A DNA stretch of 44,937 nt, taken from positions 1 to 44,937 of the forward strand of contig JBBIIW010000003.1 in assembly GCA_037446305.1 (NCBI GenBank), written 5' to 3'. A model generated the notes under the pieces. It worked only from the letters and a program-made list of their open reading frames with translations. It had not been told where the DNA came from and did no database searches. Below, piece after piece: positions 633 through 29,074 of the stretch. Source of the stretch: Candidatus Rokuibacteriota bacterium (GTDB taxonomy: Bacteria; Methylomirabilota; Methylomirabilia; Rokubacteriales; CSP1-6). Within the stretch, counting starts at the first letter, position 1. The number at the start of each line of letters is the position of its first letter. The position numbers and the translations under genes were made by a program.

Positions 633-1130
633 CCGAGGACTTCGAGTACATCTCCCGCGCCCGCCTGGAGTTCCGCCATGGGTACCGGCACGCCTACATG
701 GAGGAGGTCCCCCAACCCGTGGTCTACGGCATGAAGGGCGGCCTGCGCGAGTATTACGGCCGCTTCGACGCGCCGCCGCTCCCCGCCACGCTGGACCACA
801 TCGTGGCTGCGGTGGCCGGTTGAATGTACGGCACGCTGGCCGGCGCCCTGGCAGGGCGCAAGATCGAGTTCGACCGGTCGTCGTATACCGCCACCGTCGA
901 GGGCCGGATCGCCGGCCGCGGCAAGACGATTGCGATCCAGTCGATCGTCATGCACTACGAGCTGGCCGTCGCCCCCCGACGCCCTCGACGCCACGCGCCG
1001 GGCGCTGGCAGCCCATCCGCAAGGGTGCCCCGCCCACGAGAGCGTCAAGAGCGCCATCGCGATCAGCTGGGATGCCCAGGTGCGGGCGGGCGACCAGGTG
1101 ATCTCGCTCAAGAGCGAGCCCTCGGCGTAG
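629..1130 (+). CDS. OsmC/Ohr-family peroxiredoxin-like protein and candidate selenoprotein. It has an in-frame TGA at 821-823 at the first conserved Cys position, and needs a 1-nt frame correction in the C6 run at 972-977.
   Basis: ORFs 629..823 and 824..1198 share one frame and are separated only by TGA: ...LDHIVAAVAG-TGA-MYGTLAGALAGRKIEF. This matches the OsmC ..LA.C....L.. motif. The C-terminal part (PDALDATRRALAAHPQGCPAHESVKSAI) is in frame 0 and carries the second conserved Cys (CP.). A GGAGGAG RBS precedes the ATG at 629. Confidence 0.6.
843..859 (+). other. Hairpin GCGCCC-tggca-GGGCGC starting 19 nt after the OsmC TGA. Candidate bacterial SECIS upper stem-loop.
   Basis: Perfect 6-bp stem with a 5-nt loop containing GG, read directly from the sequence. 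GC-rich DNA forms many such hairpins, so this is weak evidence on its own. Confidence 0.35.
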
Positions 1131-1134
1131 GCCG

Positions 1135-1885
1135 GTGGCTCCCGCGCGCTGCGCCGCGCCGCCCGCGGCTCTGCGAGGCCGCTGGAGGCCCGTGCTGAAT
1201 GACGGCCCCGCGCTGGCGGCGCCGCCGGCCGGGGCCGAGTTGCGGGCGACCGAGGAGGTGGCACGACGGCTGCCCCACCTGGCCCCGGCCAGCCGCGACA
1301 CGCGGCAGACGCGGCTCGCGTTCTGGATCAACGTGTACAGCGCGCTGGCGCTCCACGCCTTCGTCGCCCTCGGCGTCGGGCGATCGGTCTGGCAGTCCCG
1401 GGCTTCTTCTGGCGTGCGAGCTATCGGGTCGGGCCCTGGGTGCTGAACGTCGAAGAGATCGAGCACGGCATCCTGCGTGCCAACCATCGGCGGGTGCTGC
1501 CCCGCTGCCCCGCGTTCCGCCCCGGCGACCCCCGGCGGGCGCTGGCGCTGCCGGAAGTCGATCCCGCGTGCACTTCGCCCTGACGTGCGAGGCGCGTTCC
1601 TGTCCGCCCGTGCGTCTCTACCGCGCCCCGATGGTGGATGCGCAGCTCGACCTGGCGGCGCGCCACTTCGTGGCGACGGAGGTCGTCCTCGACGCCGCCG
1701 GCCGCATCGCCTGCTCGCGACTCCTCAAGTGGTACCGGTCGGACTTCGACGGCGGTGAGGGCCTGCGGGTCTTCCTGCTCCACCACCTCGACGACGGGCC
1801 GGTGCGGTCGGCGTTGCTGGCCGGCGCCCCGCCCTGCCGGACCTTCCGCCCGTACTTCTGGACGCTCCAGCATCCGCCCGCCTGA
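1135..1885 (+). pseudogene. DUF547 family protein carrying two 1-nt frameshifts, near 1397-1402 and 1563-1567.
   Basis: The DUF547 motifs are spread over three frames. AFWINVYSALALHAFV is in frame 1. GFFWRASYRVGPWVLNVEEIEHGILRAN is in frame 0. RVHFALTCEARSCPPVRLY...LLKWYRSDF is in frame 2. Both shifts sit in short C/G homopolymer runs. Confidence 0.6.
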
Positions 1886-1949
1886 GCGCCGCGCAGGCCG
1901 ACAGACAGAGGGAATACGCGGGGCCGGGAAGCGGGTTATTACGACCGCG

Positions 1950-2378
1950 ATGAGGGTCTCGATCACCTCCCTCGAGATGACGAGCGGACGGCGGGTCGAA
2001 TTCGTCGACGTCACGCCACGCGTGCGAGAGGTGATCCGGGCTCAGTCCGTGACGGACGGACTCGTCATGGTCGCGGCTCGCCACACGACCTGCGCGCTGT
2101 TCGTCAACGAGTTCCAGACCGCCCTGACCGAGGACTTCACCCGGCTGCTGGGGGAGCACATTCCGGAACAGCTCGGCTACCGACACGACGATCCGCGGTA
2201 CTCCGACTGCGAGCGGGGCAACGGCGCCGCCCACCTCCGCGCGCTGCTCCTCGGCTCCGCCGTCACCCTGACGCTCGCCAAGGGCCAGCTGGCCCTCGGC
2301 CGCTTCCAGTCAATCATCTTCGCCGAATTCGACGGTCCGCGTCGCCGGGACCTGGTGGTTCAGATCCTCGGCCAGTGA
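1950..2378 (+). CDS. yjbQ: YjbQ/UPF0047 family protein (secondary thiamine-phosphate synthase-like)
   Basis: MRVSITSLEM...VDVTPRV...DGLVMVAARHTTCALFVNE...DDPRYSDCERGNGAAHLRALLLGSAVTLTLAKGQLALGRFQSIIFAEFDGPRRR is typical of the family. Confidence 0.8.
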   Translation: MRVSITSLEMTSGRRVEFVDVTPRVREVIRAQSVTDGLVMVAARHTTCALFVNEFQTALTEDFTRLLGEHIPEQLGYRHDDPRYSDCERGNGAAHLRALLLGSAVTLTLAKGQLALGRFQSIIFAEFDGPRRRDLVVQILGQ

Positions 2379-7136: not shown

Positions 7137-7206
7137 CGCTCTGTGCCTCATGGACGTTTTTCGATCGGGAATGTAGCATTGGCCGGACAGCCAGGCAAGA
7201 GGCCCC

Positions 7207-7238
7207 TTGACCTTCCCCCAAGGGGAAAGGTCTAGGCT
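7207..7238 (+). promoter_or_regulatory. MerR-family (CueR-box-like) promoter. TTGACC, a long spacer carrying the dyad ACCTTCCCC-N-GGGGAAAGGT, then TAGGCT.
   Basis: TTGACCTTCCCCCAAGGGGAAAGGTCTAGGCT closely resembles the E. coli PcopA CueR operator (TTGACCTTCCC...GGAAGGT). The over-long 19-20 bp spacer is a MerR-family hallmark. It lies about 10 nt upstream of the regulator ATG. Confidence 0.6.
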
Positions 7239-7248
7239 CGGGGACGCG

Positions 7249-7686
7249 ATGAAGGGTGGGCTGAAGATCGGCGAGCTGGCCCGGCAGGCGGGGCTCACCG
7301 CGCGGGCCATCCGGTTCTACGAGCGCAAGCGTGTCCTGCCGCCGCCGCGACGCTCCGCGAGCGGATACCGGCTCTACGGCCCGGAGGCCGTCGAGATGCT
7401 GCGGTTCGTGAAGCAGGCGACCGGCCTGGGCCTGACACTGGCCGAGATCAGGGAGATCATCGCCATCCGCCGGGGTGGCCGCCCGCCGTGCGACCACGTC
7501 CACCAGCTGCTGCGGGCCAAGGCGGTCGAGCTGGATCGCAAGCTCGAGGACCTGGTCGCCCTCCGCCGCCGCATCCGGCAAAGTCTCGCCGCCTGGAGCC
7601 GAAGGCCGCGCGGGGCCGCCGCCGTCTGCCACCACATCGAGGGCCCGCACCGCGGCGGTGGCCTCCAGGGGCGGCGAGACGCCTGA
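7249..7686 (+). CDS. MerR-family metal-responsive transcriptional regulator
   Basis: N-terminal HTH LKIGELARQAGLTARAIRFYERKRVLPPPRRSASGYRLY. Dimerisation helix and a C-terminal Cys/His loop (PPCDHV ... AVCHHIEG). Its stop overlaps the ATPase ATG (TGATG). Confidence 0.85.
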   Translation: MKGGLKIGELARQAGLTARAIRFYERKRVLPPPRRSASGYRLYGPEAVEMLRFVKQATGLGLTLAEIREIIAIRRGGRPPCDHVHQLLRAKAVELDRKLEDLVALRRRIRQSLAAWSRRPRGAAAVCHHIEGPHRGGGLQGRRDA

Positions 7687-10121
7687 TGGCGGCCGGCAAG
7701 CTCCAGGTCAAGGTGGGCGGGATGGCCTGCTCCTTCTGCCTGGAGACGATCAGGAAGGGGCTCGGCCGGATCCCGGGGGTCAGCGAGGTCAACGTCAGCC
7801 TGGCCCACGAGGAGGCCTTGATCACCTACGACCCCGGCCGCGTCACGCCGGCGACGCTCACCGACACGCTCCGCAGCCTCGGCTATACCGTCCGGGATCC
7901 GAACAGGGTCCGCACCTTCGAGGAGGAGGAGGCCGAGCTGCGCCGGGAGCGGGAGCGCCTGATCGTCGCCGGAGCCCTGGCCTGGATCGGCCTCCTGTTC
8001 ATGCTGCTCATGTGGACCGGGCGCCACCATCCCCATGTCCACGGGATCATGGCCGGGCTCGCCGTCGCGATGGTGTTCGGGCTGGGGCTCCCCATCCTGC
8101 GCACGGCCTGGGCCTCGGTCCGCCGGCGGATCCTGAACCAGCACGTGCTGATGGAGGTGTCGGCCTTCAGCGGACTCGTGGGCGGGGTGATCGGTCTCGT
8201 GCGCCCCCAGATCTTCCCGAGTCACGAGTTCTTCGGGGTGGCGGTGTTCGTCACCGCCTACCACATCCTCGGCGGGTACGCCTCCCTGCTCGTGCGGACC
8301 CGGGCCTCGCAGGCGGTCAAGAAGCTGCTCTCGCTCCGGCCGCCGGCCGCGTGCGTCGTCCGCGACGGGGAAGCGCTCGAGGTGCCGGTCGCCGAGGTGC
8401 GGCGCGGGGACCTCGTCCGGATCCGCCCCGGTGAGCAGATCCCCGTCGACGGCGTGGTGGTGGAGGGCGCCTCGGCGGTCGACGAAAGCCTGGTCACCGG
8501 CGAGCCCCTGCCGCGCGAAAAGGTGCCCGGCCAGGAGGTCATCGGCGGCTCGGTCAACCGCCACGGCTCGCTGCTGGTGCGCGTCACGCGCGTGGGCGAG
8601 GAGAGCTTCCTCGAGCAGGTGGCGCGGCACATCCAGGAGGCGCGCGCGCTCAAACCAGGCCTCCTCCTGCTCCTGGACCGGATGCTCGAATACTTCGTCC
8701 CCGGCGTCCTCCTGGTCGGGCTGGCGGCCTTCACGCTCTGGACGCTGGGGGCCTGGGCCGTCCGGGGCGCCCCCGACTGGGAGCGGGCGGCGCTCGCCGC
8801 GCTGGCCGTGCTGGTCATGGGCTACCCGTGCGCGCTGGGGATGGCGACGCCGCTGGCCATGATCCGCGGGGGCGGCGAGGCCGCGCGCCAGGGCATCCTC
8901 ATGCGCAGCGCCGCCTCGTTCCAGGCCTTCAAGGACGTCTCGGTCGTCGTGCTCGACAAGACCGGGACGATCACCCGCGGCGAGCCCCGGGTGGTGGATG
9001 TCGTGCCGGCCGCCGGCGGGGAGGCCGACGACGTGCTGGCCCTCGCGGCCTCGGCCGAGCAGCTCTCGGAGCATCCCCTGGCCCGGGCGGTCGTCGAGGC
9101 GGCCCGGGCCAGGGGCCTTGCCCTGGAACCGGTTCACGACTTCGAGACGGTGGCGGGCAAGGGGGTGCGGGCCAGGGCCGGCGGCGAGGCGGTCCTGGTG
9201 GGGACGCTGCGGTTCCTCCGGGAGGCCGGGATCGACACCGGCCACCTCGAGACTCTGGCCGAGGCGCATGAAGCTCGCGCCCAGACGGTCATCGCGGTGG
9301 CGAGCGAGGGGCGGCCTGTCGGTCTCGTCACGCTGGCGGACACCATCAAGGCCGACGCGAAGGAGGCCATTGACCGGCTTCGCGCCGCTGGCCTGGCGCC
9401 GGTCATGATCACCGGGGACAATCCCCGAACCGCCCGGGCGGTGGCCGACCAGGTGGGCATCCAGGAGATCCGGGCCCAGGTACTGCCGCAGGACAAGGCC
9501 GCGCGCGTCCGGGAGCTGCAGCGGGCGGGCAAGCGGGTGGCGATGGTGGGAGACGGCATCAACGACGCGCCGGCCCTCACGCAGGCCGACGTGGGCCTCG
9601 CCATCGGAACCGGCACCGACATCGCGATCGAGTCGGCCGACGTGGTGCTGGTCGGGGAGCGGCTGAGCGCGGTGGTGGACGCCTACCGGAGCGCGCGGCG
9701 CACGTACGGCAAGACGGTCCAGAACCTCTCGCTGGCGTTCTCCTTCAACGGCATCGGGGTGCCCCTGGCGACCACCGGACTCGTCTCCCCCGTCTGGGCC
9801 ATGGCCGCCATGGCCGCCAGCGTGACGGCCGTGCTCCTGAACTCGTTCCTGGGCCGGCTGGTCCCGCCGCTCCGCCGGCCGAAGCCCACGGCCCGACAGG
9901 TGACGCTCTTCGTACCGAGCCTCCGCTGCCAGGGGTGCGTGAACACCCTCCGCGACGCGCTCGGGAAGCTGCCGATCGTGGTGGGGGTCGAGGGCGACCC
10001 CGTGAGCAAGCAGCTGGTGGTGACCGTGCGGGACGGCCAGGGGCGGGTGACGGCGGTGGAGGAGGAGATCACCCGGCTCGGCCACGTGGTGGGCGAGCAG
10101 GCGCGTGAGGTGCGTTCATGA
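7686..10121 (+). CDS. Heavy-metal translocating P1B-type ATPase with an N-terminal HMA domain (GMACSFC) and a C-terminal HMA-like domain (LRCQGC)
   Basis: DKTGT phosphorylation site, TGDN, GDGINDAP, TGEP actuator motif, and membrane motif VMGYPCALGMATP in place of the usual CPC. Confidence 0.9.
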   Translation: MAAGKLQVKVGGMACSFCLETIRKGLGRIPGVSEVNVSLAHEEALITYDPGRVTPATLTDTLRSLGYTVRDPNRVRTFEEEEAELRRERERLIVAGALAWIGLLFMLLMWTGRHHPHVHGIMAGLAVAMVFGLGLPILRTAWASVRRRILNQHVLMEVSAFSGLVGGVIGLVRPQIFPSHEFFGVAVFVTAYHILGGYASLLVRTRASQAVKKLLSLRPPAACVVRDGEALEVPVAEVRRGDLVRIRPGEQIPVDGVVVEGASAVDESLVTGEPLPREKVPGQEVIGGSVNRHGSLLVRVTRVGEESFLEQVARHIQEARALKPGLLLLLDRMLEYFVPGVLLVGLAAFTLWTLGAWAVRGAPDWERAALAALAVLVMGYPCALGMATPLAMIRGGGEAARQGILMRSAASFQAFKDVSVVVLDKTGTITRGEPRVVDVVPAAGGEADDVLALAASAEQLSEHPLARAVVEAARARGLALEPVHDFETVAGKGVRARAGGEAVLVGTLRFLREAGIDTGHLETLAEAHEARAQTVIAVASEGRPVGLVTLADTIKADAKEAIDRLRAAGLAPVMITGDNPRTARAVADQVGIQEIRAQVLPQDKAARVRELQRAGKRVAMVGDGINDAPALTQADVGLAIGTGTDIAIESADVVLVGERLSAVVDAYRSARRTYGKTVQNLSLAFSFNGIGVPLATTGLVSPVWAMAAMAASVTAVLLNSFLGRLVPPLRRPKPTARQVTLFVPSLRCQGCVNTLRDALGKLPIVVGVEGDPVSKQLVVTVRDGQGRVTAVEEEITRLGHVVGEQAREVRS

Positions 10122-10657
10122 GAACGTGGGTATGGACGGCGATCATCGTGGCCGCCCTGGCAACCGGGTACGTGGCCGGGTATGTCGTCAGGACCCCGGC
10201 CGGCGGCGGCATGGCGGTGGCCGGCGTGCCGGTCGCGCCGCCCGTGAAGGGCTACGCCGAAGGGCAAACGATTCACTTCCTCCACACCGAGGCGTCCGAT
10301 CCCGAGGTGGCGAAGATGTTGACGGACATGATGGGCGGCTCCCCGGTGCTGGTGGTCCCGGCCCTGGCAAAGGCTCCCGAGGTTCTCCTGGCGCCGGTCT
10401 ACGTCTTTACCAACGGGGTGAAGGGCGACGGCCCCTTCGGCTTCCAGCCCGACGTGTTCGATTCGCCACCGGGCACCGAGGGCTATCGGCCTCTGCGGAC
10501 GGTGCACCTCGTCCGATGGACGAACGAGGGCGCTGCGCGTGAGCTGAAGGCCGTGACGGAGGTGAAGGCGGCGGCGATGGCGGGCGACGTGACGATCGCG
10601 CAGTCCGGCATCGTCGTCAACATGCCGATGATGACGTGGCCGGGCGGCCGCCGCTGA
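10118..10657 (+). CDS. Membrane-anchored hypothetical protein, translationally coupled (ATGA) to the ATPase
   Basis: N-terminal TM helix WVWTAIIVAALATGYVAGYVV followed by a soluble domain. No family recognised with confidence. Confidence 0.6.
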   Translation: MRTWVWTAIIVAALATGYVAGYVVRTPAGGGMAVAGVPVAPPVKGYAEGQTIHFLHTEASDPEVAKMLTDMMGGSPVLVVPALAKAPEVLLAPVYVFTNGVKGDGPFGFQPDVFDSPPGTEGYRPLRTVHLVRWTNEGAARELKAVTEVKAAAMAGDVTIAQSGIVVNMPMMTWPGGRR

Positions 10658-10742: not shown

Positions 10743-11030
10743 ATGAACGCGGCGCGGCTCCTGGTCGAGATCCTCACCGCCCCCGGCTGAGGCAAGTGCG
10801 AGGAGGCCAGGCGGCTGGTCTTCAAGGCGATCGAGATGGCGAGGGGACGCTTCACCGACCTCGAGGTGCGGGAGTGGAACCTGGCCGAGCACCCCGAGCT
10901 CGGGCCCCGGTACGGCGTGATGGCGACGCCAGCCGTCGTGATCAATGGCCGGCTCGAGTTCCGCGGGGTGCCCAGGGAAGCGGCGCTGCTCGAGCGGCTC
11001 GAGGCCGCCCGAAGCAGGGCCGGCGGCTGA
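10743..11030 (+). CDS. Small thioredoxin-fold protein (redox-active disulfide protein 2 / Thioredoxin_3-like). In-frame TGA at 10788-10790 gives a U-G-K-C motif. Candidate selenoprotein.
   Basis: ATG 10743 is in frame with ORF 10836..11030. Read through the TGA: MNAARLLVEILTAPG-TGA-GKCEEARRLVFKAIE...YGVMATPAVVINGRLEFRGVP. The TGA sits at the first Cys of the family's PGCxxC motif. Confidence 0.65.
10802..10823 (+). other. Hairpin GGAGGCCAG-gcgg-CTGGTCTTC starting 11 nt after the TGA. Candidate bacterial SECIS.
   Basis: 9-bp stem (two G-U pairs) with a 4-nt G-rich loop. The 11-nt spacing from UGA matches the minimal E. coli fdhF SECIS geometry. Confidence 0.45.
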
Positions 11031-11033
11031 GCC

Positions 11034-11891
11034 ATGAGGGAGGCGCCGCGCCCCACCGGCCACGAGCCGGCCCCGGTTGCGGTGGCCGGGCCGCGGCGGC
11101 AGTCAGCGTCTGCGGTAACGCTCCTGGCCGCGCTCGGCGGCCTCGGGCTCCTGGCGCTCGTCGGGTGGGTGGCGTGGAACCAGGGAGTCCTGGTCGGTCT
11201 CCGGTGGGCGGCCTTCGAGGCGCCGCTCGCGCTCGCCGCCTTCGGCTTCATCGCCGGGGTCGGCGCGTTCTTCGCGCCGTGCGCGTTCGCGCTGTTTCCC
11301 GGCTCCATCTCGTACTCCCTGACGTCGGTCGGCCCCGGACGCGAGAGCGTCGGGCACGCGCTGGCCCTCGGCGCCAGCTGCGCCGGCGGGAGCGCACTCT
11401 TCTTCGCGCTGACCGGCCTGGCGATCACGCTCGTCGGTGGATCGATCGCGCCGTACCTGATCGCCACCAAGCCGGCGATCGCACTCGCCGTGGTGCTCCT
11501 CGGCCTGGTGCTGGTCGCCGACGTGCGCCTGCCGTCGGTCGGCGGGCCGATCGGCCGCATCGGGGCCGGACTCCCGCCCGCGGCCGGCCTCGTCCTCTAC
11601 GGGTTCGGCTACGCGCTGGCCTCCACGGGCTGCACGCTCCCCATCTACGTCTCGATCGTCGTGCTGCCGCTGACGAGCGGCTTCGCCGGGGCAGCGCTGC
11701 TCACCTTCGCCAGCTTCGCGTCGGCGATGGCCCTGATGATGCTCCTCACGAGCCTCCTGGTGGGGCTCGCCAGGGCGAGCCGGCTTCGCCGGCTCCAGGC
11801 CTCGACGGTCTGGATCAAGCGGGCGAGCGGGGCGATCCTGATCGCGGCGGGACTCTACCTCGGCTACTACTACGTCGCAGCGGGGATGTGA
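11034..11891 (+). CDS. ccdA: CcdA/DsbD-family transmembrane thiol:disulfide electron transporter
   Basis: Multi-TM protein with the two membrane-embedded Cys motifs FFAPCAFALFP and STGCTLP. It starts 3 nt after the thioredoxin-like gene. Confidence 0.8.
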   Translation: MREAPRPTGHEPAPVAVAGPRRQSASAVTLLAALGGLGLLALVGWVAWNQGVLVGLRWAAFEAPLALAAFGFIAGVGAFFAPCAFALFPGSISYSLTSVGPGRESVGHALALGASCAGGSALFFALTGLAITLVGGSIAPYLIATKPAIALAVVLLGLVLVADVRLPSVGGPIGRIGAGLPPAAGLVLYGFGYALASTGCTLPIYVSIVVLPLTSGFAGAALLTFASFASAMALMMLLTSLLVGLARASRLRRLQASTVWIKRASGAILIAAGLYLGYYYVAAGM

Positions 11892-11910
11892 CGTGACGGA
11901 GGGAGGATTC

Positions 11911-12243
11911 ATGCGACCTCTTCATCTGGCGCTCGCGCTGACGATCACCGTGGCCGCCTGGCTCGTGCCCCACCTGGCGGACGCCGGTCTGAAGGTCGTG
12001 ACGATCGACGTGCGGGGCATGGTGTGCCGGGGCTGACCGGCCACCATCGCCACAGCCTTGGAGAGGCTGCCGGGCGTGAAGCGCGCGGCGGTGGTGCTGG
12101 AGACGAGACAGGCCCGAGTGACGTACGACGACAAGAAGCAGACACCGGAGAAGCTCGCCGCGGCCATCGATATGCTGGGCTTCAAGGCATCGGTCCGTTC
12201 GGTCGCCGGGGCGCCGGCGGCGGAGGCGCCGGCCGGTCGTTGA
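11911..12243 (+). CDS. Secreted MerP-like heavy-metal-associated (HMA) protein. In-frame TGA at 12034-12036 gives GMVC-R-G-U. Candidate selenoprotein.
   Basis: ATG 11911 has a GGAGGGAGG RBS and is in frame with ORF 12058..12243. Signal peptide MRPLHLALALTITVAAWLVPHLADA, then LKVVTIDVRGMVCRG-TGA-PATIATALERLPGVKRAAVVLE. The TGA replaces the second Cys of GMxCxxC. Confidence 0.65.
12053..12069 (+). other. Hairpin CAGCCT-tggag-AGGCTG starting 16 nt after the TGA. Candidate bacterial SECIS.
   Basis: Perfect 6-bp stem with a 5-nt loop containing GG. Confidence 0.4.
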
Positions 12244-12285
12244 GGCATGGCGAGCGTCACGCTTTCGGTTTCGGGGAGGACGGGC

Positions 12286-13635
12286 ATGGAACGCGGGTAT
12301 GACCTGGTCGTGGTGGGAACGGGCGTGGCGTCGGCCGTCGCCTCCCGGTGCCGGGAGGCGGGCTGGACGGTGGCGGTCGTCGACTCGCGCCCCTTCGGCG
12401 GCACCTGCGCGCTGCGAGGCTGCAACCCCAAGAAGATGCTCGTGAGCGCGGCGGAGGCCATCCATGCCGCCTCCCGCCTGGCCGGCAAGGGCGTGCGCGC
12501 CGACGGCCTGACGATCGACTGGCCGGCGCTCGTGCGCTTCAAGCGAACGGCGACCGACCCGGTGCCCGCGCGGACCGAGCAGACATGGGCGCAGGCCGGG
12601 GTGGAGATGTTCCACGGCCGGGCCCGCTTCGTCGGACCCACGACGCTGGCCGTGGGAGATGATCGCCTCACCGGCACCCGTGTGCTGATCGCCGCCGGCG
12701 CCATGCCCCGACGGCTGCCGTTCGCCGGGGCCGAGCTGCTGACGACGAGCGAGCAGTTCCTGGAGCTGGACGCGCTCCCGACCCGGCTGCTGTTCGTGGG
12801 CGGCGGATACATCTCCTTCGAGTTCGCCCACGTGGCCGCCCGCGCCGGGGCGGAGGTGACGATTCTCCACCGGGGGGACCGGGCCCTGGAGGGGTTCGAC
12901 CCCGACCTGGTGGACCTGCTGGTCAGGCGGACCCGGGAGCTCGGCGTCCGGGTCGAGCTGGCCACGGAGGTGCGGGGCGTCGAGCGGAGCGACGGCGGTC
13001 TGATCGTCCGGGCGCTGGCGGGGGGTCGCGAGCGCCGCTTCGAGGCCGACCTGGCGATCCACGGGGCCGGACGCGCCCCGGAGATCGATGACCTCGACCT
13101 CGAGGCGGCGGGGGTGAAGCGCGAACGGCGGGGCGTCACCGTGAACGACTTCCTGCAGAGCGTGTCCAACCCGGCGGTGTACGCAGCCGGCGACGCCGCG
13201 GCCAGCGGGGGCCCGCCGCTGACCCCCAAGGCCGCCCACGACGCCGAGGTGGTGGCCTGGAACCTCCTGCACGGCAACCAGCGCCGGCCGAACTACGAGG
13301 GCCTGGCCTCCGTCGTGTTCACCGTGCCGCCGCTGGCCTCGGCGGGCCTGGGGGAGGCCGCGGCCCGGGCCCGGGGCCTCCGATTCCGCGTCCGCTGGCA
13401 GGAGACCTCGCAGTGGTTCAGCGCCCGACGCCTGGCCGAGACGGGCGCCGGCTTCAAGGTGCTGGTCGAGGAGGGCAGCGGCCGCATCCTCGGCGCGCAC
13501 CTGTTCGGGCCCCACGCCGACGAGGTCATCAACACCTTTGCCGTCGCCATCCGGGCCGGCATCCCGGCCGACGAGCTCCGGCAGGCCCTGTTCGCCTACC
13601 CGACCAGCAGCGCGGACATCCCCTTCATGCTCTGA
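12286..13635 (+). CDS. Class I pyridine nucleotide-disulfide oxidoreductase (glutathione reductase / MerA-core-like flavoprotein)
   Basis: YDLVVVGTGVAS FAD motif, redox-active GGTCALRGCNPKK, a second Rossmann motif LLFVGGGYISFEFA, and AAGD. C-terminal motif AYPTSSAD in place of HPTSSE. The ATG at 12286 with a GGGGAGGA RBS is preferred over 12247. Confidence 0.85.
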   Translation: MERGYDLVVVGTGVASAVASRCREAGWTVAVVDSRPFGGTCALRGCNPKKMLVSAAEAIHAASRLAGKGVRADGLTIDWPALVRFKRTATDPVPARTEQTWAQAGVEMFHGRARFVGPTTLAVGDDRLTGTRVLIAAGAMPRRLPFAGAELLTTSEQFLELDALPTRLLFVGGGYISFEFAHVAARAGAEVTILHRGDRALEGFDPDLVDLLVRRTRELGVRVELATEVRGVERSDGGLIVRALAGGRERRFEADLAIHGAGRAPEIDDLDLEAAGVKRERRGVTVNDFLQSVSNPAVYAAGDAAASGGPPLTPKAAHDAEVVAWNLLHGNQRRPNYEGLASVVFTVPPLASAGLGEAAARARGLRFRVRWQETSQWFSARRLAETGAGFKVLVEEGSGRILGAHLFGPHADEVINTFAVAIRAGIPADELRQALFAYPTSSADIPFML

Positions 13636-25453: not shown

Positions 25454-25486
25454 GGCTGGCGCACATCGGCTGAAGGAGCGCCGCGC

Positions 25487-28400
25487 ATGCTGAAGGCGAT
25501 CCCGAAGTTCGCGGTCGAGCACCCGATGGTGATGATCCCGATCTACCTGGCGATGATCGGGGTCGGCGTCGTCATGTACCGGCACCTGCCGCTCGAGCTC
25601 CAGCCGTATTTGGAGAACCCGACCGTCGGGATCGTCATCACCTACCCAGGCGTCTCCGCCGAGGACATGGAGTACTACTTCGCCCGGCCCATCGAGAAGA
25701 AGATGGGCGTGCTGGGCGGGGTCACGTTCATCCGCTCCAACTCGCAGGAGGGGCGCACCGAGGTCGTCATCGGCTTCGAGTACGGCTCGGACATGAACCA
25801 GCACAAGCTGGACGTGCAGACCCTCCTGACCAACATGCTCAACGAGCTCCCCTTCGACAAGGACAACACGACCAACCCCTGGGTCGTCCACGTCGCCAAC
25901 GACAACGTCCCCATCCTTGACCTCAACGTCACGCACAGCGAGTGGGACGACGTCCGGCTGCGCGAGTTCCTGGACAACATCGTCCGGGAGCGGCTCGAGT
26001 CGGTCCCGGGCGTCCAGTCGATCATGCCCTACGGGGGCAAGCGCCGGCTCATGCTGGTCGAGGTGGACCGGGACCGGCTCGCCGCGTACCAGCTCGGGCT
26101 CATGGAGGTCAAGACGGCCATCGAGCAGCAGCACCTGAGCCGGGCAGCCGGCAAGCTTCGCTCTCGGGAGTGGGACATCCTGGTCCGGGCGGACGCGATC
26201 CTCCGCGATCCGCGCGACCTCGGCGGGATCCCCATCGGGACGTTCAAGGACCGGGTCGTCTACCTGAGGGACGTGGCGACGGTGAAGGACTCCTTCGCCG
26301 AGGTGACGAGCAGCTACCACTTCAACGGCCGGCGGGGCATCCTCCTCACGCTGATCAAGCAGCCACAGGTGGGCGACAAGGAGCCGATCGAGGGGGTGCT
26401 GGCGCGCATGGACGAGTTCGTGCGCGAGTACCCCGGGCTCCGGTACGAGATCGCCTACAACCGCCTGAACTTCCTCGAGCGGATCATCGCCAACGCCTGG
26501 CACGAGATGTTCCTGGCGTTCACGATCACGTCCATCGTCGTGCTCGCCTTCCTGAATCAGATCCGCCCGACCTTCATCGTCCTGGTGACGCTGCCGGCGG
26601 CGGTGAGCGCCGGCTTCATCTGGTGGCGGCCGTTCGGCTTCACGGTGAACACACCGACCCTCATGGCGCTGACCTTCGTCATCGGCCGACTGGTGGACGA
26701 CTCGGTGATCATGATGGAGGTCATCGACCGCCATCTCCGGATGGGCAAGCCGCCCAAGCAGGCGGCCATCGAGGGCGCCCAGGAGGTGAGCGGGGCGATG
26801 GTCGCCATCGGCGCCACGGCCTGGCTCGCCATGGGGCCGGCGCTCTTCCTCGGCGGCACCATGGGGACGGGTTTCCAGGGAATGACCGCCCCGATGATCT
26901 TCGCCAACCTCATGTCCACGTTCTTCACGCTCACCCTCGATCCGACGCTCCGGGCCTATCTCCTGCGGCCGCGGACGAAGGAGACGATGACGATCACGGA
27001 CTACCTGGACCGGGGCGTCGAGGTCCTCATGCGGCCGGCCCAGTGGCTCTTCGGCCGGGCGGAGTGGCTCCAGCTGAACGTGCTGAACTGGGCGCTCGAC
27101 TACCGCGTCGTGGTCCTCGCCGTCGGCGCCGCCTCGCTCTACGCCGGCTACAAGATCTGGCCGACACTCGGCTGGGAGGGCATGCCGCTCCAGGACACCG
27201 GGCAGGCCGTGGGCGAGGTGGAGACCTGGCCCGGGGCATCCTTCGAGGAGACCGAGAAGATCGTTTCCAAGATCGAGGAGCATCTGCTGAAGAATCCCGA
27301 GGTCAAGCTGGTGTCCACCCAGATCGGTATGGAGCCGGGCCTGGGCACCGCGCCGAACTTCACGTACTTCTCGGGCTACGGCGTCCGCACCGTGAACAAG
27401 GCGTTCTTCAAGATCACGCTCACCGACACCGACGAGCGCACCTGCCAGTTCTACCACCGCTGGGCCGACGGCTTCGCGCCGCTGCGCCCGCTGGTCCAGC
27501 CCTGCGCGGAGCGGAGCGGGCGGACGATCTGGACGATCCTCGACACCACGCAGGCCCAGATCCTGGCCCACGTCCCCGGGATCCGCAGCCTCTGGTTCAT
27601 GGAGATGGGGGCGACGCCCGTCAACACGGCGCGGGCGCCCGTGGAGGCGATCATCAAGGGCGACGACATCGCCGTCCTGGACCAGCTCGGCAAGCAGGCG
27701 CTGGAGGTCGGCAACCGGACGCCCGGCCTGGTCCAGCCGTTCACCTCCTGGTCGATGACCATGCCCCAGTACCGCCTGGAGATCGACCGGGTCCGGGCGA
27801 AGGAGCTGGGCCTCGCGGTGCCCCAGATCGCGATGCAGGCCTTCTACGCACTCCAGGGCGGCTTCACGAGCGAGTTCTTCAAGCCCGAGGAAGGCTACCG
27901 GCACACGCGCTTCCTGATCCGCTACAAGCCCGAGCAGCGGCGGACCCTGGAGGACCTCGAGCAGGTGAAACTCACGACGCCGACGGGCAAGGTCGTCCCC
28001 CTCAAGGAGGTGGCCCGGGTGGTGCCGCGCAACGGGGTGGACTGGGTGTACAAGGAGGACCTCCAGTACGCCCTAACCGTCCTGGCCCAGTACCGCGAGG
28101 TCGGCCTGAAGATGGCCACCGCCGGGCTCATCATGGGGATCAAGACCTCGGTCCCGCTGCCCAAGCGCTACACCGTCCAGCCCAAGGGCATGATGCTCGA
28201 CATGCTGGACAACCTCTACCGCCTGTACAACGGCATGTACCTGGCGATCGGCATCCTCTTCATCCTCCTGCTCCTCCAGACCCGCTCGATGGTCTCGACG
28301 CTCGCGATCCTGGTCGACGCGCCGCTGGAGTGGATGGGGGCGATCTACCTGCTGTGGCTCCGGGGCTTCAACTGGTCACCGCCGGTCGTGTGGGGGATGA

Positions 28401-29074
28401 TGCTCGCCACCGTCATGGTGATGGCGACCGGCATCCTCCTGGTCGAGAAGATCACCCAGCTCGAGGCGGCGGGGCTGGACCGCCGGCGCGCGGTGCTCAC
28501 CGCCTCCCCCATCCGGCTGCGGCCGGTGCTCATGACGACGCTGACCACGGCGTCCGCCTTCATCCCGCCCATGTTCGCGCCCCCGACCGGGATGGACCGC
28601 TTCCGGCCGATCGCGACGGCGATCGTGGGCGCACTGATCAGCTCGACGGCCCTCGGGCTCATCACGGTGCCGGTCATCTACACGGTCCTGGACGACCTGC
28701 GGCAGTTCCTCCGGAAGGTGTACGCGGGCCTCCCGTTCGCGCGGAGGGTCAGCGGCGAGGAGTTCGTGCGCAAGCTCCCCGCCCTCCCGACGGAGGTCCT
28801 GTGGGAGCTCCGCCACGTGGACCAGTACAAGCCGGGCGTCTTCGGGTTCGATACGAGCGTCATCCCTCGGATCCTCGAGGAGCGGGAGCGGGCGCGAAAG
28901 GCGCGGGAGGCGCGGGAGGAGGAGGTGATCGAGGTCGAGGAGCTGCCCCTCCCGGCGCTGGCCGGCGGCGCCGGCGACGGTGCGCCTCACACCCAGGACC
29001 CGATCCGGGGCGTCAGTCCCCGGGCGGCGGGGGACGGCGAGAACCAACCACCGGAACGGCCGTCACACGGGTAA
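25487..29074 (+). CDS. RND-superfamily efflux permease (AcrB/CzcA-like) with a charged C-terminal extension
   Basis: 1195 aa with 12-TM topology and two large periplasmic loops. TM4 motif VIGRLVDDSVIMMEVIDRH. Confidence 0.9.
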   Translation: MLKAIPKFAVEHPMVMIPIYLAMIGVGVVMYRHLPLELQPYLENPTVGIVITYPGVSAEDMEYYFARPIEKKMGVLGGVTFIRSNSQEGRTEVVIGFEYGSDMNQHKLDVQTLLTNMLNELPFDKDNTTNPWVVHVANDNVPILDLNVTHSEWDDVRLREFLDNIVRERLESVPGVQSIMPYGGKRRLMLVEVDRDRLAAYQLGLMEVKTAIEQQHLSRAAGKLRSREWDILVRADAILRDPRDLGGIPIGTFKDRVVYLRDVATVKDSFAEVTSSYHFNGRRGILLTLIKQPQVGDKEPIEGVLARMDEFVREYPGLRYEIAYNRLNFLERIIANAWHEMFLAFTITSIVVLAFLNQIRPTFIVLVTLPAAVSAGFIWWRPFGFTVNTPTLMALTFVIGRLVDDSVIMMEVIDRHLRMGKPPKQAAIEGAQEVSGAMVAIGATAWLAMGPALFLGGTMGTGFQGMTAPMIFANLMSTFFTLTLDPTLRAYLLRPRTKETMTITDYLDRGVEVLMRPAQWLFGRAEWLQLNVLNWALDYRVVVLAVGAASLYAGYKIWPTLGWEGMPLQDTGQAVGEVETWPGASFEETEKIVSKIEEHLLKNPEVKLVSTQIGMEPGLGTAPNFTYFSGYGVRTVNKAFFKITLTDTDERTCQFYHRWADGFAPLRPLVQPCAERSGRTIWTILDTTQAQILAHVPGIRSLWFMEMGATPVNTARAPVEAIIKGDDIAVLDQLGKQALEVGNRTPGLVQPFTSWSMTMPQYRLEIDRVRAKELGLAVPQIAMQAFYALQGGFTSEFFKPEEGYRHTRFLIRYKPEQRRTLEDLEQVKLTTPTGKVVPLKEVARVVPRNGVDWVYKEDLQYALTVLAQYREVGLKMATAGLIMGIKTSVPLPKRYTVQPKGMMLDMLDNLYRLYNGMYLAIGILFILLLLQTRSMVSTLAILVDAPLEWMGAIYLLWLRGFNWSPPVVWGMMLATVMVMATGILLVEKITQLEAAGLDRRRAVLTASPIRLRPVLMTTLTTASAFIPPMFAPPTGMDRFRPIATAIVGALISSTALGLITVPVIYTVLDDLRQFLRKVYAGLPFARRVSGEEFVRKLPALPTEVLWELRHVDQYKPGVFGFDTSVIPRILEERERARKAREAREEEVIEVEELPLPALAGGAGDGAPHTQDPIRGVSPRAAGDGENQPPERPSHG

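What the first reader, a model, noticed from the sequence alone, without database searches (positions are those of the whole stretch)
10743..13635. Candidate selenocysteine-based transmembrane reducing and metal-handling relay inside a MerR/P1B-ATPase operon
Four consecutive, tightly spaced genes look like a complete electron relay, and two members carry TGA in their redox or metal motif. The genes are a cytoplasmic thioredoxin-fold protein (U-G-K-C), a CcdA membrane thiol:disulfide transporter, a signal-peptide-bearing MerP-like HMA protein (C-R-G-U), and a cytoplasmic flavoprotein disulfide reductase (CxxxxC). The proposed path is NAD(P)H to flavoprotein to UxxC thioredoxin to CcdA to periplasmic CxxU metal binder. 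The block sits directly downstream of a metal-sensing MerR regulator, a metal-exporting ATPase and a coupled membrane-anchored protein. I do not recognise a dedicated pathway for keeping a periplasmic selenol-thiol metal chaperone reduced as a described system. A selenolate would bind soft metals (Hg, Cu, Ag, Au, Cd) far more tightly than a thiolate.
Basis: partly seen in the sequence, partly recalled or inferred. Interest (0 to 1): 0.88.

Follow-up and report, generated by a model that had tools for sequence, protein, structure and literature searches.

The report
Selenocysteine thioredoxin–CcdA–metal-binder membrane module
Two small genes in a metal-efflux operon of a soil bacterium (phylum Rokubacteria) almost certainly encode selenocysteine proteins, a cytoplasmic thioredoxin and an exported metal-binding protein, which flank a membrane electron carrier; this conserved trio is cut short in every database entry I retrieved and probably keeps a selenium-based metal trap outside the cell in working order.

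Summary
In-frame TGA codons sit at 10788-10790 (thioredoxin-fold gene, U-G-K-C) and 12034-12036 (signal-peptide HMA gene, C-R-G-U), on either side of a CcdA-like membrane gene.

Comparison of 95 related loci (74 distinct) makes selenocysteine (Sec) decoding very likely:
- The HMA motif is CxxU in 41 loci, UxxC in 21, UxxU in 2, and never CxxC.
- The thioredoxin has U in 51 loci and Cys in 1.
- Both TGAs are followed by hairpins that meet all four bacterial SECIS criteria. One hairpin shows compensatory base changes. The other is frozen at synonymous sites and uses rare codons.
- TGA is otherwise the normal stop codon.

The conserved unit is MerR, an unusual "YPC" P1B ATPase, thioredoxin(U), CcdA and HMA(U). 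The flavoprotein is not part of it: it is adjacent in 1 of 30 loci. It is 43.5% identical to GbsMerA, a short enzyme reported to reduce Hg(II), so it is not a supported thioredoxin reductase.

Best explanation: cytoplasmic thioredoxin(U) passes electrons through CcdA to keep the periplasmic Sec/Cys metal site reduced, beside a metal exporter. The metal is unresolved.

HMA/MerP-type and thioredoxin-fold selenoproteins are already catalogued. I found no description of this three-gene module. It is a new variant of a known kind.

The parts
7205..7238 (+). MerR-type promoter and operator: -35 TTGACC, dyad ACCTTCCCC/GGGGAAAGGT, 20-nt spacer, -10 TAGGCT.
   Evidence: An inverted repeat was found. 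The same element precedes merR in 15 related loci. It closely resembles the E. coli PcopA CueR box read from NC_000913.3.
7249..7686 (+). MerR-family metal-sensing regulator, first gene of the operon.
   Evidence: Pfam MerR_1, MerR and MerR-DNA-bind all match. No NCBIfam equivalog cut-off is reached: CadR/PbrR 85, MerR 83, ZntR 82, CueR 79 bits. It has Cys where CueR has Ser77, lacks an equivalent of CueR Cys112, and keeps the Cys120 equivalent plus His residues (A7).
7686..10121 (+). P1B-type heavy-metal ATPase with N- and C-terminal HMA domains. It has atypical motifs: TM4 G-Y-P-C, TM5 F-N and TM6 M-A-A-S-V-T.
   Evidence: TIGR01525 scores 558 bits against a cut-off of 346. The motifs are shared by every ATPase next to the module in related loci, whereas a classical CPC/YN/MxxSS CopA is a separate gene in L008.
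10118..10657 (+). Membrane-anchored DUF7482 protein. It has no Cys and carries Met/His-rich stretches. Its start overlaps the ATPase stop.
   Evidence: PF24298 scores 85.8 bits. It is present next to the 72-84%-identical ATPases in L005, L012, L066, L073, L081, L082, L084, L086 and others.
10743..11030 (+). Cytoplasmic MJ0307-type thioredoxin-fold selenoprotein (95 aa) with active site U16-G-K-C19.
   Evidence: PF13192 scores 45.9 bits. The best solved structure is 1FO5, and U aligns to the first Cys of its CPHC motif. Of 52 distinct loci, 51 have TGA here and 1 has TGT. All database homologues are truncated gene calls of 54-73 aa, plus one of 94 aa, that start after the TGA.
10788..10790 (+). 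Sec-UGA codon of the thioredoxin gene.
10802..10823 (+). SECIS-like hairpin of the thioredoxin gene: 8-9 bp stem, 4-nt loop GCGG, 20 nt after the UGA, -13.0 kcal/mol.
   Evidence: On 38 distinct sequences, 91.8% of cells are paired against 25-50% in slid controls, and one pair switches A-U to C-G in 12 sequences.
11034..11891 (+). CcdA-like membrane thiol:disulfide electron transporter. It has 7 predicted TM helices, namely an extra N-terminal TM0 plus the 6-TM core, and invariant Cys83, Cys116 and Cys200.
   Evidence: PF02683 scores 20.1 bits, below its cut-off, but most close homologues carry precomputed PF02683 hits. The family profile aligns Cys83 and Cys200 to the two redox Cys of T. thermophilus CcdA 5VKV (E 0.015). 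5VKV is also the top fold match (prob 0.84, TM 0.49, model pLDDT 64.5). More distant relatives are Redoxin/AhpC-TSA-DsbD_TM fusions.
11911..12243 (+). Exported MerP-like HMA selenoprotein (110 aa): signal peptide residues 1-24, metal site C39-R-G-U42.
   Evidence: PF00403 scores 54 bits. The best NCBIfam hit is NF041115 'metal-binding (seleno)protein' at 67.8 bits, below its 95 cut-off; MerP TIGR02052 scores 64.8 against 92.55. Over 64 distinct loci the motif is CxxU in 41, UxxC in 21, UxxU in 2 and CxxC in 0. It always lies directly downstream of the CcdA-like gene.
12034..12036 (+). Sec-UGA codon of the HMA gene.
12053..12069 (+). SECIS-like hairpin of the HMA gene: CAGCCUU-GGA-GAGGCUG, 7-bp stem, loop GGA, 23 nt after the UGA (32 nt in UxxC forms), -9.5 kcal/mol.
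   Evidence: It is invariant, including at synonymous sites, in the 10 aligned loci. It uses the rare codons TTG (12 of 677 Leu) and AGG (33 of 513 Arg). L105 and L106 show a compensatory C-G to U-A change. The hairpin is absent from the Cys-type MerP of L027, where only 3 of 7 pairs remain.
12286..13635 (+). Short MerA-like flavoprotein (GbsMerA subfamily). It is an accessory gene found at this position only in this genome. It has the C-ALRG-C redox pair and the C-terminus ...AYPTSSADIPFML (Tyr, not His), with no NmerA domain and no C-terminal Cys pair. The ORF could also start at 12247.
   Evidence: It is adjacent to the module in 1 of 30 loci. A 54%-identical homologue lies in the mer-like cluster L017.

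Best explanation
This is a conserved, metal-regulated envelope module of Rokubacteria (Methylomirabilota), built around two selenoproteins.

Proposed mechanism:
1. A MerR-type regulator switches on one operon. It encodes an atypical (YPC-motif) P1B export ATPase, a cytoplasmic thioredoxin with a Sec-x-x-Cys active site, a CcdA-type membrane electron transporter, and an exported HMA (MerP-like) protein whose two metal ligands are a Cys/Sec pair.
2. The ATPase pumps a soft metal out of the cytoplasm.
3. The periplasmic HMA protein binds the metal through its selenolate/thiolate pair.
4. Because that pair oxidises readily to a selenenylsulfide outside the cell, the dedicated thioredoxin(U) passes electrons through the two membrane-embedded Cys of CcdA to keep it reduced.
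5. The thioredoxin is presumably recharged by a housekeeping thioredoxin reductase encoded elsewhere.

The adjacent flavoprotein is not the electron donor of this relay. It is a short MerA-type metal-ion reductase that this one genome added to the operon.

Shown here: the in-frame TGAs at Cys positions, their conservation, the SECIS-like hairpins, the domain identities, the predicted topology, the synteny and the MerR-type promoter.

Inferred: actual Sec insertion, the direction and partners of electron flow, the metal hand-off from the ATPase, and the identity of the metal.
For: Sec decoding:
- TGA aligns to the Cys of CxxC motifs.
- 64 of 64 HMA genes and 51 of 52 thioredoxin genes in distinct loci carry TGA there. 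Sec sits at the first, the second or both HMA positions, and one thioredoxin orthologue has Cys.
- Both hairpins meet the bSECIS criteria quoted in PMC13188914: a 3-4 nt loop starting with G, spacing of 20, 23 or 32 nt, and dG of -13.0 and -9.5 kcal/mol.
- The hairpins show covariation and frozen rare codons.
- TGA is the ordinary stop in 14 of 17 window genes.
- A UGSC-family selenoprotein gene lies beside the module in L001.
- The phylum is reported to use Sec heavily, with one MAG predicted to hold 63 selenoprotein genes.

Relay:
- Thioredoxin lies immediately upstream of CcdA in 46 of 52 loci. HMA lies immediately downstream wherever the contig extends that far.
- There is an in-frame thioredoxin(U)-CcdA fusion in L058.
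- An extra TM0 puts the CcdA N-terminus, and so a fused thioredoxin, in the cytoplasm.
- Cys83 and Cys200 align to the CcdA redox Cys.
- Distant relatives are Redoxin-CcdA fusions.
- U occupies the nucleophilic position of the thioredoxin motif.
- In this operon the exported HMA protein carries Cys/Sec, whereas the membrane-anchored DUF7482 protein has no Cys.

Metal context:
- An ATPase lies upstream in 16 of 20 loci and MerR in 14 of 19.
- A CueR-box-like MerR promoter is conserved in 15 loci.
- Precedent: in Salmonella, periplasmic CueP acquires Cu(I) from the P-type ATPases in vitro and cooperates with the Scs disulfide-reductase system, which includes the DsbD-family ScsB (PMC10907172).
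Against: - No Sec machinery (selA, selB, selC, selD) or tRNA-Sec could be examined for the source genome. None lies in the window or the fetched loci.
- Known CcdA/DsbD substrates are thioredoxin-fold or Ig-fold proteins. Direct reduction of an HMA domain would be unprecedented, and no periplasmic thioredoxin-like adaptor is encoded in the cluster.
- The window's CcdA-like protein is below the Pfam cut-off, and the fold match is weak.
- Free interchange of CxxU, UxxC and UxxU says the Sec is a ligand. It does not show that the site cycles redox.
- The gene composition also parallels mer operons (see the first rival).
- The metal is unknown. The regulator's ligand set and the ATPase motifs match no characterised class.
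Confidence: 0.55

Rival explanations
1. A mer-like metal import relay rather than an electron relay. The periplasmic HMA(U) acts like MerP. The CcdA-like protein carries the metal ion, for example Hg(II), across the membrane on its Cys pair, as MerT does. The cytoplasmic thioredoxin(U) receives the metal in place of the missing NmerA domain and C-terminal Cys pair. It then hands the metal to the short MerA-like flavoprotein for reduction, or to the ATPase for export.
For: - The operon composition parallels a classical mer operon found here, L027: MerR, a small thioredoxin-like protein, MerA, MerT, MerP.
- Small Trx_3-like proteins recur beside MerR, with a MerA-like flavoprotein in several loci, in several phyla (L017-L029).
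- The window's flavoprotein belongs to the GbsMerA type, which lacks its own metal-delivery Cys.
- Interchange of the Sec position in HMA fits a pure ligand role.
- The third invariant Cys116 in the membrane protein is unexplained by a two-Cys redox cycle (A4, A6).
Against: - A MerA-like gene is adjacent in only 1 of 30 loci.
- The module almost always accompanies an export ATPase, so import would be futile.
- The relatives of the membrane protein are thiol-disulfide electron transporters fused to Redoxin domains, not metal carriers.
- It lacks the vicinal Cys pairs that, from my own knowledge of the family, mark MerT, MerC and MerF; L027's MerT has one.
- Handing a metal from a Se,S site to an S,S site would be thermodynamically uphill.
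Confidence: 0.2
2. The adjacent flavoprotein is the dedicated NAD(P)H-dependent reductase of the UxxC thioredoxin, which would make the four genes a self-contained relay.
For: - The four genes are co-oriented with gaps of 3-42 nt and no predicted terminator between them.
- The flavoprotein has a CxxxxC redox pair.
- High-Mr thioredoxin reductases belong to the same structural class (one search lists TrxR structures among the weaker hits).
Against: - The flavoprotein is absent from 29 of 30 related loci.
- It has Tyr instead of the His of the His-Glu catalytic pair, and no C-terminal redox centre of the kind high-Mr TrxRs use to reach protein substrates.
- Its closest characterised homologue is reported as an Hg(II) reductase whose Tyr437 is essential.
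- A homologue sits in a mer-type cluster.
Confidence: 0.1
3. The TGAs are not Sec codons. They would be true stops (split or decayed genes), assembly errors, or sites of low-level near-cognate readthrough.
For: - Gene callers treat them as stops in every database entry.
- Sec machinery was not verified for this genome.
Against: - TGA sits at exactly the Cys-aligned codon in about 64 independent assemblies.
- Coding sequence is conserved upstream. This includes the signal peptide and the GMV motif, which would be useless if the gene started after the TGA.
- The Sec position is relocated between sublineages.
- The downstream hairpins are under RNA-level selection.
Confidence: 0.04

Closest known systems
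CcdA/DsbD-family transmembrane reducing pathways, especially the Salmonella Scs system (ScsB/ScsC) working with the periplasmic copper chaperone CueP and the ATPases CopA and GolT
   Same: - Cytoplasmic thioredoxin-type reductant, a membrane protein with two redox Cys, and a periplasmic Cys-based target.
- A link to copper or soft-metal stress and to a P1B exporter.
- In vitro, CueP acquires Cu(I) from the ATPase and cooperates with the Scs system (PMC10907172).
- Cys83 and Cys200 align to the CcdA redox Cys.
   Different: - Here the donor is a dedicated, operon-encoded Sec-thioredoxin rather than general TrxA.
- The membrane protein has an extra TM0 and a third invariant Cys.
- No periplasmic thioredoxin-fold intermediary (ScsC, DsbC or ResA type) is encoded.
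- The presumed target is an HMA domain with a Cys/Sec pair.
Catalogued HMA-type selenoproteins: 'Mercuric transport protein MerP' and 'putative mercuric transport protein' (MerT/HMA, C/SxxU), cation-transporting ATPase (UxxC), and NF041115 metal-binding (seleno)protein (UxxU)
   Same: HMA fold with Sec replacing one or both metal-binding Cys. NF041115 is the best NCBIfam hit, at 68-77 bits.
   Different: - All family members tested here score below the NF041115 (95 bits) and MerP (92.55 bits) cut-offs.
- This clade is signal-peptide-bearing, mixes CxxU, UxxC and UxxU forms, and is defined by its linkage to CcdA and a Sec-thioredoxin.
- That linkage is not mentioned in the papers I could read.
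Thioredoxin-fold UxxC selenoproteins (Trx, Grx, the AhpF-N-terminal-like TIGR02187 family, SaoT, and the PF13192 'Sec.1/Sec.2' forms)
   Same: Small thioredoxin fold with Sec at the N-terminal nucleophilic position. It belongs to PF13192, like Sec.1 and Sec.2.
   Different: - The listed PF13192 selenoproteins have CxU or UxC motifs, whereas this one has UxxC.
- It is an MJ0307-like protein paired, and once fused, with a CcdA.
The mer operon (MerR, MerT, MerP, MerA)
   Same: - A MerR-family regulator and a periplasmic MerP-like HMA protein.
- In this window, a MerA-like flavoprotein of the GbsMerA type.
- Small thioredoxin-like proteins occur in genuine mer operons.
   Different: - There is no MerT, MerC or MerF.
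- An export ATPase is present.
- MerA-like genes are absent from 29 of 30 related loci.
- The flavoprotein fails the MerA equivalog cut-off (278 against 454 bits) and lacks NmerA and the C-terminal Cys pair.
SAO and Tso multi-selenoprotein operons (Haft and Gwadz 2022/2023; Haft and Tolstoy 2025)
   Same: Several selenoprotein genes in one neighbourhood. Sec sits on both sides of the membrane, is suspected to contact soft metals, and includes a thioredoxin-like member.
   Different: The protein families, the host organisms (anaerobic Firmicutes for SAO) and the architecture all differ. The SAO preprint I could read does not mention CcdA or HMA. The 2025 Tso paper was not available to me.

Membership tests
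Bacterial selenoprotein gene (Sec-UGA plus bSECIS) | In-frame UGA aligned to Cys in homologues, with coding sequence conserved on both sides | tested here: met
   U aligns to the first Cys of CPHC in 1FO5 and to the CxxC of PF00403. Cys orthologues are L013 for the thioredoxin and L027 for MerP. In distinct loci, 64 of 64 HMA genes and 51 of 52 thioredoxin genes carry TGA.
Bacterial selenoprotein gene (Sec-UGA plus bSECIS) | Downstream stem-loop meeting the bSECIS model: 3-9 nt loop with G in its first two positions, 4-16 bp stem, 16-37 nt from the UGA, MFE of -7.5 kcal/mol or lower | tested here: met
   Thioredoxin: loop GCGG, 9-bp stem, 20-nt spacing, -13.0 kcal/mol. HMA: loop GGA, 7-bp stem, 23 or 32 nt spacing, -9.5 kcal/mol. 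Covariation is shown.
Bacterial selenoprotein gene (Sec-UGA plus bSECIS) | selA, selB, selC (tRNA-Sec) and selD present in the same genome | not testable with these tools
Indirect support comes from a UGSC selenoprotein gene on contig L001 and from reports of Sec-rich Methylomirabilota.
Bacterial selenoprotein gene (Sec-UGA plus bSECIS) | Selenium actually incorporated into the protein | not testable with these tools
   This needs 75Se labelling or LC-MS/MS.
HMA domain / MerP | PF00403 above the gathering score, with the GMxCxxC metal loop | tested here: met
   54 bits against a cut-off of 24.8. The loop is GMVCRGU.
HMA domain / MerP | MerP equivalog TIGR02052 above 92.55 bits | tested here: not met
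   64.8 bits. UxxC and UxxU relatives score 57-59 bits.
NF041115 UxxU metal-binding (seleno)protein | Score of at least 95 bits and a UxxU motif | tested here: not met
   The scores are 67.8 bits for the window protein and 69-77 bits for three relatives, including both UxxU forms. The window motif is CxxU.
CcdA / DsbD_TM electron transporter | PF02683 above the gathering score | tested here: not met
   The window protein scores 20.1 bits against 27.1, covering residues 69-161 only. Most close homologues carry precomputed PF02683 hits.
CcdA / DsbD_TM electron transporter | Two conserved redox Cys, in TM1 and TM4 with P-C...P-type motifs, aligned to those of a solved CcdA | tested here: met
   FAPC83AFALFP aligns to SPCVLPLVP, and TGC200TLP aligns to TPCIGP of 5VKV. 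Both Cys are invariant in 39 sequences (A6).
CcdA / DsbD_TM electron transporter | CcdA-like fold | tested here: inconclusive
   The AF2 model has pLDDT 64.5. The top Foldseek hit is 5VKV, but with E 0.46, prob 0.84 and TM 0.40/0.49.
CcdA / DsbD_TM electron transporter | Functional coupling to thioredoxin-fold partners | tested here: met
   The thioredoxin gene is adjacent in 46 of 52 loci. One in-frame fusion exists. Nine of ten long distant relatives scanned are AhpC-TSA/Redoxin/Thioredoxin_8 fusions to the TM domain.
MJ0307-type thioredoxin (PF13192 / TIGR00411) | Thioredoxin_3 domain with a CxxC-type active site | tested here: met
   PF13192 scores 45.9 bits against 24.8. The alignment to 1FO5 has E 4e-13.
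MJ0307-type thioredoxin (PF13192 / TIGR00411) | Equivalog score of at least 92.75 bits | tested here: not met
   48.1 bits.
Mercuric reductase MerA | TIGR02053 score of at least 454 bits | tested here: not met
   277.8 bits. The window's other flavoprotein, at 43082-44749, does pass, with 561 bits.
Mercuric reductase MerA | C-terminal Cys-Cys pair and an NmerA HMA domain | tested here: not met
   The protein ends ...AYPTSSADIPFML and has no HMA domain.
Mercuric reductase MerA | Active-site CxxxxC plus Tyr in place of the His of disulfide reductases | tested here: met
   C-ALRG-C is present, and YPT aligns to Tyr437 of GbsMerA 8K40.
Copper-type P1B-1 ATPase (CopA) | TM4 CPC, TM5 YN and TM6 MxxSS motifs | tested here: not met
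   The motifs found are G-Y-P-C, F-N and M-A-A-S-V-T. The generic heavy-metal P1B model TIGR01525 is met at 558 bits.

The most novel reading that the evidence does not exclude
A dedicated, selenium-dependent transmembrane relay, running from Sec-thioredoxin through a CcdA-type transporter to a periplasmic Sec/Cys HMA protein, services a selenolate metallochaperone that works with a previously unclassified YPC-motif P1B ATPase. If so, CcdA would reduce a non-thioredoxin-fold metal-binding domain directly. Selenium availability would then become a determinant of soft-metal (Cu, Ag, Hg or Cd) tolerance in a widespread soil and groundwater phylum.
Probability: 0.4. Interest if true: 0.75.

Novelty: new variant of a known kind. 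Interest (0 to 1): 0.62.

Why it matters
- Every one of the roughly 190 database homologues of the two small proteins that I retrieved is a truncated gene call beginning after the TGA. The family is therefore effectively invisible to annotation, and its active sites are missing from protein databases.
- If the relay works as proposed, it is the first case of a CcdA-type electron transporter dedicated to a metallochaperone. It would also be the first with Sec at both the donor and the acceptor end.
- It ties selenium supply to metal resistance in Rokubacteria, a phylum widespread in soil and groundwater metagenomes.
- It points to an uncharacterised YPC-type P1B ATPase subfamily and a CueR-box-using MerR with an unusual ligand set. 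Both are directly testable.
- A periplasmic selenolate/thiolate HMA site would be of interest for capturing soft metals.

Tried and rejected
- tRNA-Sec and Rfam searches of the window and of 11 loci found nothing. This is uninformative, because sel genes need not be linked to selenoprotein genes.
- Scans of the window for further Sec-type TGAs found none beyond the two. The other same-frame TGAs, at 821, 11028, 12241, 25451, 38705, 44747 and 4458 on the minus strand, are gene boundaries.
- The idea that the flavoprotein is the relay's reductase was rejected on synteny (1 of 30 loci) and on homology to GbsMerA.
- Global TGA reassignment was rejected. TGA ends 14 of 17 genes, and the in-frame TGAs align to Cys.
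- The AF2 model of the CcdA-like protein was only moderately confident, and the fold search only weakly favoured CcdA. I did not lean on it.
- The single-sequence folding z-scores for the hairpins were unimpressive, at 0.0 and -2.1 in 72% GC sequence. The comparative evidence carries the argument.
- I tried to identify the metal from the MerR ligands, the operator and the ATPase motifs. The signals conflict: the operator resembles a CueR box, but there is Cys at the Ser77 position and no Cys112 equivalent, and the ATPase has YPC/FN motifs.
- The paper by Haft and Tolstoy (2025) could not be read.

Full report
**Observation**

The window has 72% G+C. It is identical to an NCBI metagenome-assembled contig of 44,937 nt (P0070 and P0190). 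Its relatives are labelled Candidatus Rokubacteria, Rokuibacteriota or Methylomirabilota.

On the + strand the block reads as follows.
- A thioredoxin-fold gene at 10743-11030. PF13192 scores 45.9 bits.
- A CcdA-like gene at 11034-11891. PF02683 scores 20.1 bits, below its cut-off.
- A signal-peptide HMA gene at 11911-12243. PF00403 scores 54 bits.
- A class-I flavoprotein from 12247 or 12286 to 13635.

Upstream lie MerR, a P1B ATPase and the membrane-anchored DUF7482 protein.

**Are the TGAs selenocysteine codons?**

Every close homologue in the protein database is a truncated gene call beginning just after the TGA: 60-68 aa for most HMA entries and 54-73 aa for nearly all thioredoxin entries. 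I fetched DNA from three sources: the contigs that encode those truncated homologues, species-representative genomes, and metagenomes. This gave 95 loci, of which 74 are distinct.

- The HMA metal loop is CxxU in 41 loci, UxxC in 21 and UxxU in 2. It is never CxxC.
- The thioredoxin has U in 51 loci and Cys in 1 (L013).
- Upstream coding sequence is conserved. This includes the signal peptide and the GMV motif.

Movement of the TGA between the two ligand positions, always onto a Cys column, is very hard to explain except as Sec.

Both TGAs are followed by hairpins that satisfy the four bSECIS criteria quoted in the 2026 review PMC13188914.
- Thioredoxin: 8-9 bp stem, loop GCGG, 20 nt from the UGA, -13.0 kcal/mol.
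- HMA: 7-bp stem, loop GGA, 23 nt from the UGA (32 nt in UxxC forms), -9.5 kcal/mol.

On 38 distinct thioredoxin sequences, 91.8% of cells pair, against 25-50% when the partner columns are slid. One pair switches A-U to C-G in 12 sequences.

The HMA hairpin CAGCCUUGGARAGGCUG is identical, including at synonymous sites, in the 10 aligned loci and varies in only a few of the roughly 50 sequences collected, while neighbouring third positions vary. It uses TTG (12 of 677 Leu codons) and AGG (33 of 513 Arg codons). It shows a compensatory C-G to U-A change in L105 and L106. The Cys-type MerP of L027 lacks the hairpin.

TGA is the ordinary stop codon for 14 of 17 window genes. A member of the known UGSC selenoprotein family sits next to the module in L001. 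Methylomirabilota are reported as unusually rich in selenoproteins.

The Sec machinery of this particular genome could not be examined.

**What is the conserved system?**

- Thioredoxin lies immediately upstream of the CcdA-like gene in 46 of 52 loci.
- HMA follows CcdA wherever the contig continues.
- A P1B ATPase lies upstream in 16 of 20 loci, and MerR in 14 of 19.
- The flavoprotein is adjacent in only 1 of 30 loci: the window itself.

One contig (L058) encodes an in-frame thioredoxin(U)-CcdA fusion.

The CcdA-like protein has an extra N-terminal helix (TM0). This places its N-terminus, and therefore a fused thioredoxin, in the cytoplasm. Its invariant Cys83 and Cys200 align to the two redox Cys of Thermus CcdA, 5VKV. 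5VKV is also the top, though weak, fold match. In an exhaustive profile search, nine of ten long, more distant relatives that I scanned proved to be Redoxin/AhpC-TSA/Thioredoxin_8 fusions to the TM domain. The family therefore belongs with thiol:disulfide electron transporters.

In the thioredoxin, U occupies the nucleophilic first position of the CPHC motif of MJ0307 thioredoxin, 1FO5.

The operon starts with a MerR-type promoter, CTTGACCTTCCCC...GGGGAAAGGT...TAGGCT, with a 20-nt spacer. It is conserved in 15 loci and is nearly the E. coli PcopA CueR box.

**The flavoprotein**

Its best solved relative is 8K40 (431 bits, 43.5% identity). That entry is GbsMerA from Gelidibacter, described as an Hg(II) reductase that lacks NmerA and the C-terminal Cys pair and depends on Tyr437 (PMC10587081).

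The window protein keeps the YPT...SDIP.ML C-terminus, although it has Asn where GbsMerA has Asp47. A 54%-identical homologue sits beside a MerR, a Cys-bearing membrane protein and a small thioredoxin-like protein in a Gemmatimonadales contig.

The flavoprotein is therefore better read as an accessory metal-ion reductase than as the reductase feeding the thioredoxin. The window also holds a canonical MerA at 43082-44749.

**Mechanism**

I favour an electron relay, with confidence about 0.55 for the whole scheme and about 0.9 for Sec decoding itself. Thioredoxin(U) passes electrons to CcdA, and CcdA passes them to HMA(Cys/Sec). This keeps a periplasmic selenolate/thiolate metal site reduced next to an exporter. 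The closest precedent is Salmonella CueP, which cooperates with the Scs/DsbD-type reductases and the ATPases CopA and GolT.

The main rival, at about 0.2, is a mer-like metal relay. In it the CcdA-like protein replaces MerT and the thioredoxin replaces NmerA. The composition of genuine mer operons found here, such as L027, suggests this reading. Three things argue against it: the export ATPase, the near-absence of MerA-like genes from related loci, and the redox character of the membrane protein's relatives.

The metal is unresolved.
- The ATPases next to the module all carry G-Y-P-C, F-N and M-A-A-S-V-T in place of CPC, YN and MxxSS.
- The regulator has Cys at the CueR Ser77 position, no Cys112 equivalent, and a C-[PH]-H motif.
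- DUF7482 has no Cys but is rich in Met and His.

**Comparison with what is known**

HMA-type selenoproteins are already catalogued: MerP, MerT-HMA, the ATPase N-terminal domain, and the UxxU family NF041115. Thioredoxin-fold UxxC selenoproteins are catalogued too.

The family here scores best against NF041115 but below its cut-off. It is also below the MerP equivalog cut-off.

None of the selenoproteome papers I could read mentions a link between CcdA and an HMA selenoprotein. One relevant 2025 paper was unavailable.

I therefore class the finding as a new variant of known kinds: a Sec-dependent CcdA reducing module dedicated to a metal-binding protein. It is real and conserved, but its function rests on inference.

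Noticed in passing
window 43082-44749 (+): A canonical MerA with an N-terminal HMA domain and the C-terminal ...LSCCAA motif. TIGR02053 scores 561 bits against a cut-off of 454. It lies at the contig end with no MerR, MerT or MerP next to it, so the genome holds both a classical and a short MerA-type flavoprotein.
   Followed up: partly
window 8799-8870 and the ATPases of L001, L006, L007, L010, L012 and L034: All P1B ATPases adjacent to the module carry TM4 G-Y-P-C, TM5 F-N and TM6 M-A-A-S-V-T instead of the CPC, YN and MxxSS motifs of Cu(I) pumps. A classical CPC CopA is a separate second gene in L008. This may be an unclassified P1B subtype.
   Followed up: partly
window 7205-7238; also L006, L007, L012, L014, L047, L053, L066, L074, L077, L078, L081, L082, L111 and L114: A conserved MerR-type promoter whose dyad (ACCTTCCCC...GGGGAAAGGT) is nearly the E. 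coli CueR box of PcopA. Yet the regulators have Cys at the CueR Ser77 position and lack the Cys112 equivalent.
   Followed up: partly
L001 9330-9884 (-): A UGSC-family selenoprotein gene (...AVVTAVGD-U-GSCSSGS...) that gene callers split into two ORFs at the TGA. It lies directly beside the HMA gene.
   Followed up: partly
L058 about 950-2110 (+): An in-frame fusion of the Sec-thioredoxin and the CcdA-like protein (database protein P0218, 360 aa, itself truncated at the TGA).
   Followed up: yes
L085 2170-2181; L101 6963-6974: HMA genes with TGA at both ligand positions (UxxU). These are the same clade as the CxxU and UxxC forms.
   Followed up: partly
L017-L029 (for example L027 1593-4625; L017 1209-3929): Small Cys-rich Trx_3-like proteins (CxxC, a second CxxC, and a C-terminal CC) lie beside MerR, and in several loci beside a MerA-like flavoprotein, in mer operons of Gemmatimonadota, Thermoanaerobaculia, Planctomycetota and others. 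L027 reads MerR, thioredoxin-like protein, MerA, MerT, MerP. No NCBIfam model names them.
   Followed up: partly
L005 7854-8375; L008 2053 onward; proteins P0004, P0046, P0060: Two-domain versions of the exported HMA selenoprotein. The second HMA-like domain has no Cys or Sec.
   Followed up: no
L001 3398-7047; L034 5803-9709: In one sublineage a MacB-type ABC exporter (two FtsX permeases plus an ATPase), a 113-aa protein and a YtkA-domain protein are inserted between the ATPase and the thioredoxin/CcdA/HMA genes.
   Followed up: no
window 11379-11381 (Cys116 of the CcdA-like protein): A third Cys in TM2, invariant in A4 and nearly invariant in A6, that canonical two-Cys CcdA chemistry does not explain.
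   Followed up: no
window 11028-11036 and 12241-12249: The thioredoxin and CcdA genes, and the HMA and flavoprotein ORFs, are in the same reading frame, separated only by a TGA stop plus one codon.
   Followed up: partly
window 25454-29074 (+): A 1207-codon ORF with unusual codon-position G+C (0.64, 0.42 and 0.96 at positions 1, 2 and 3). It was not examined.
   Followed up: no
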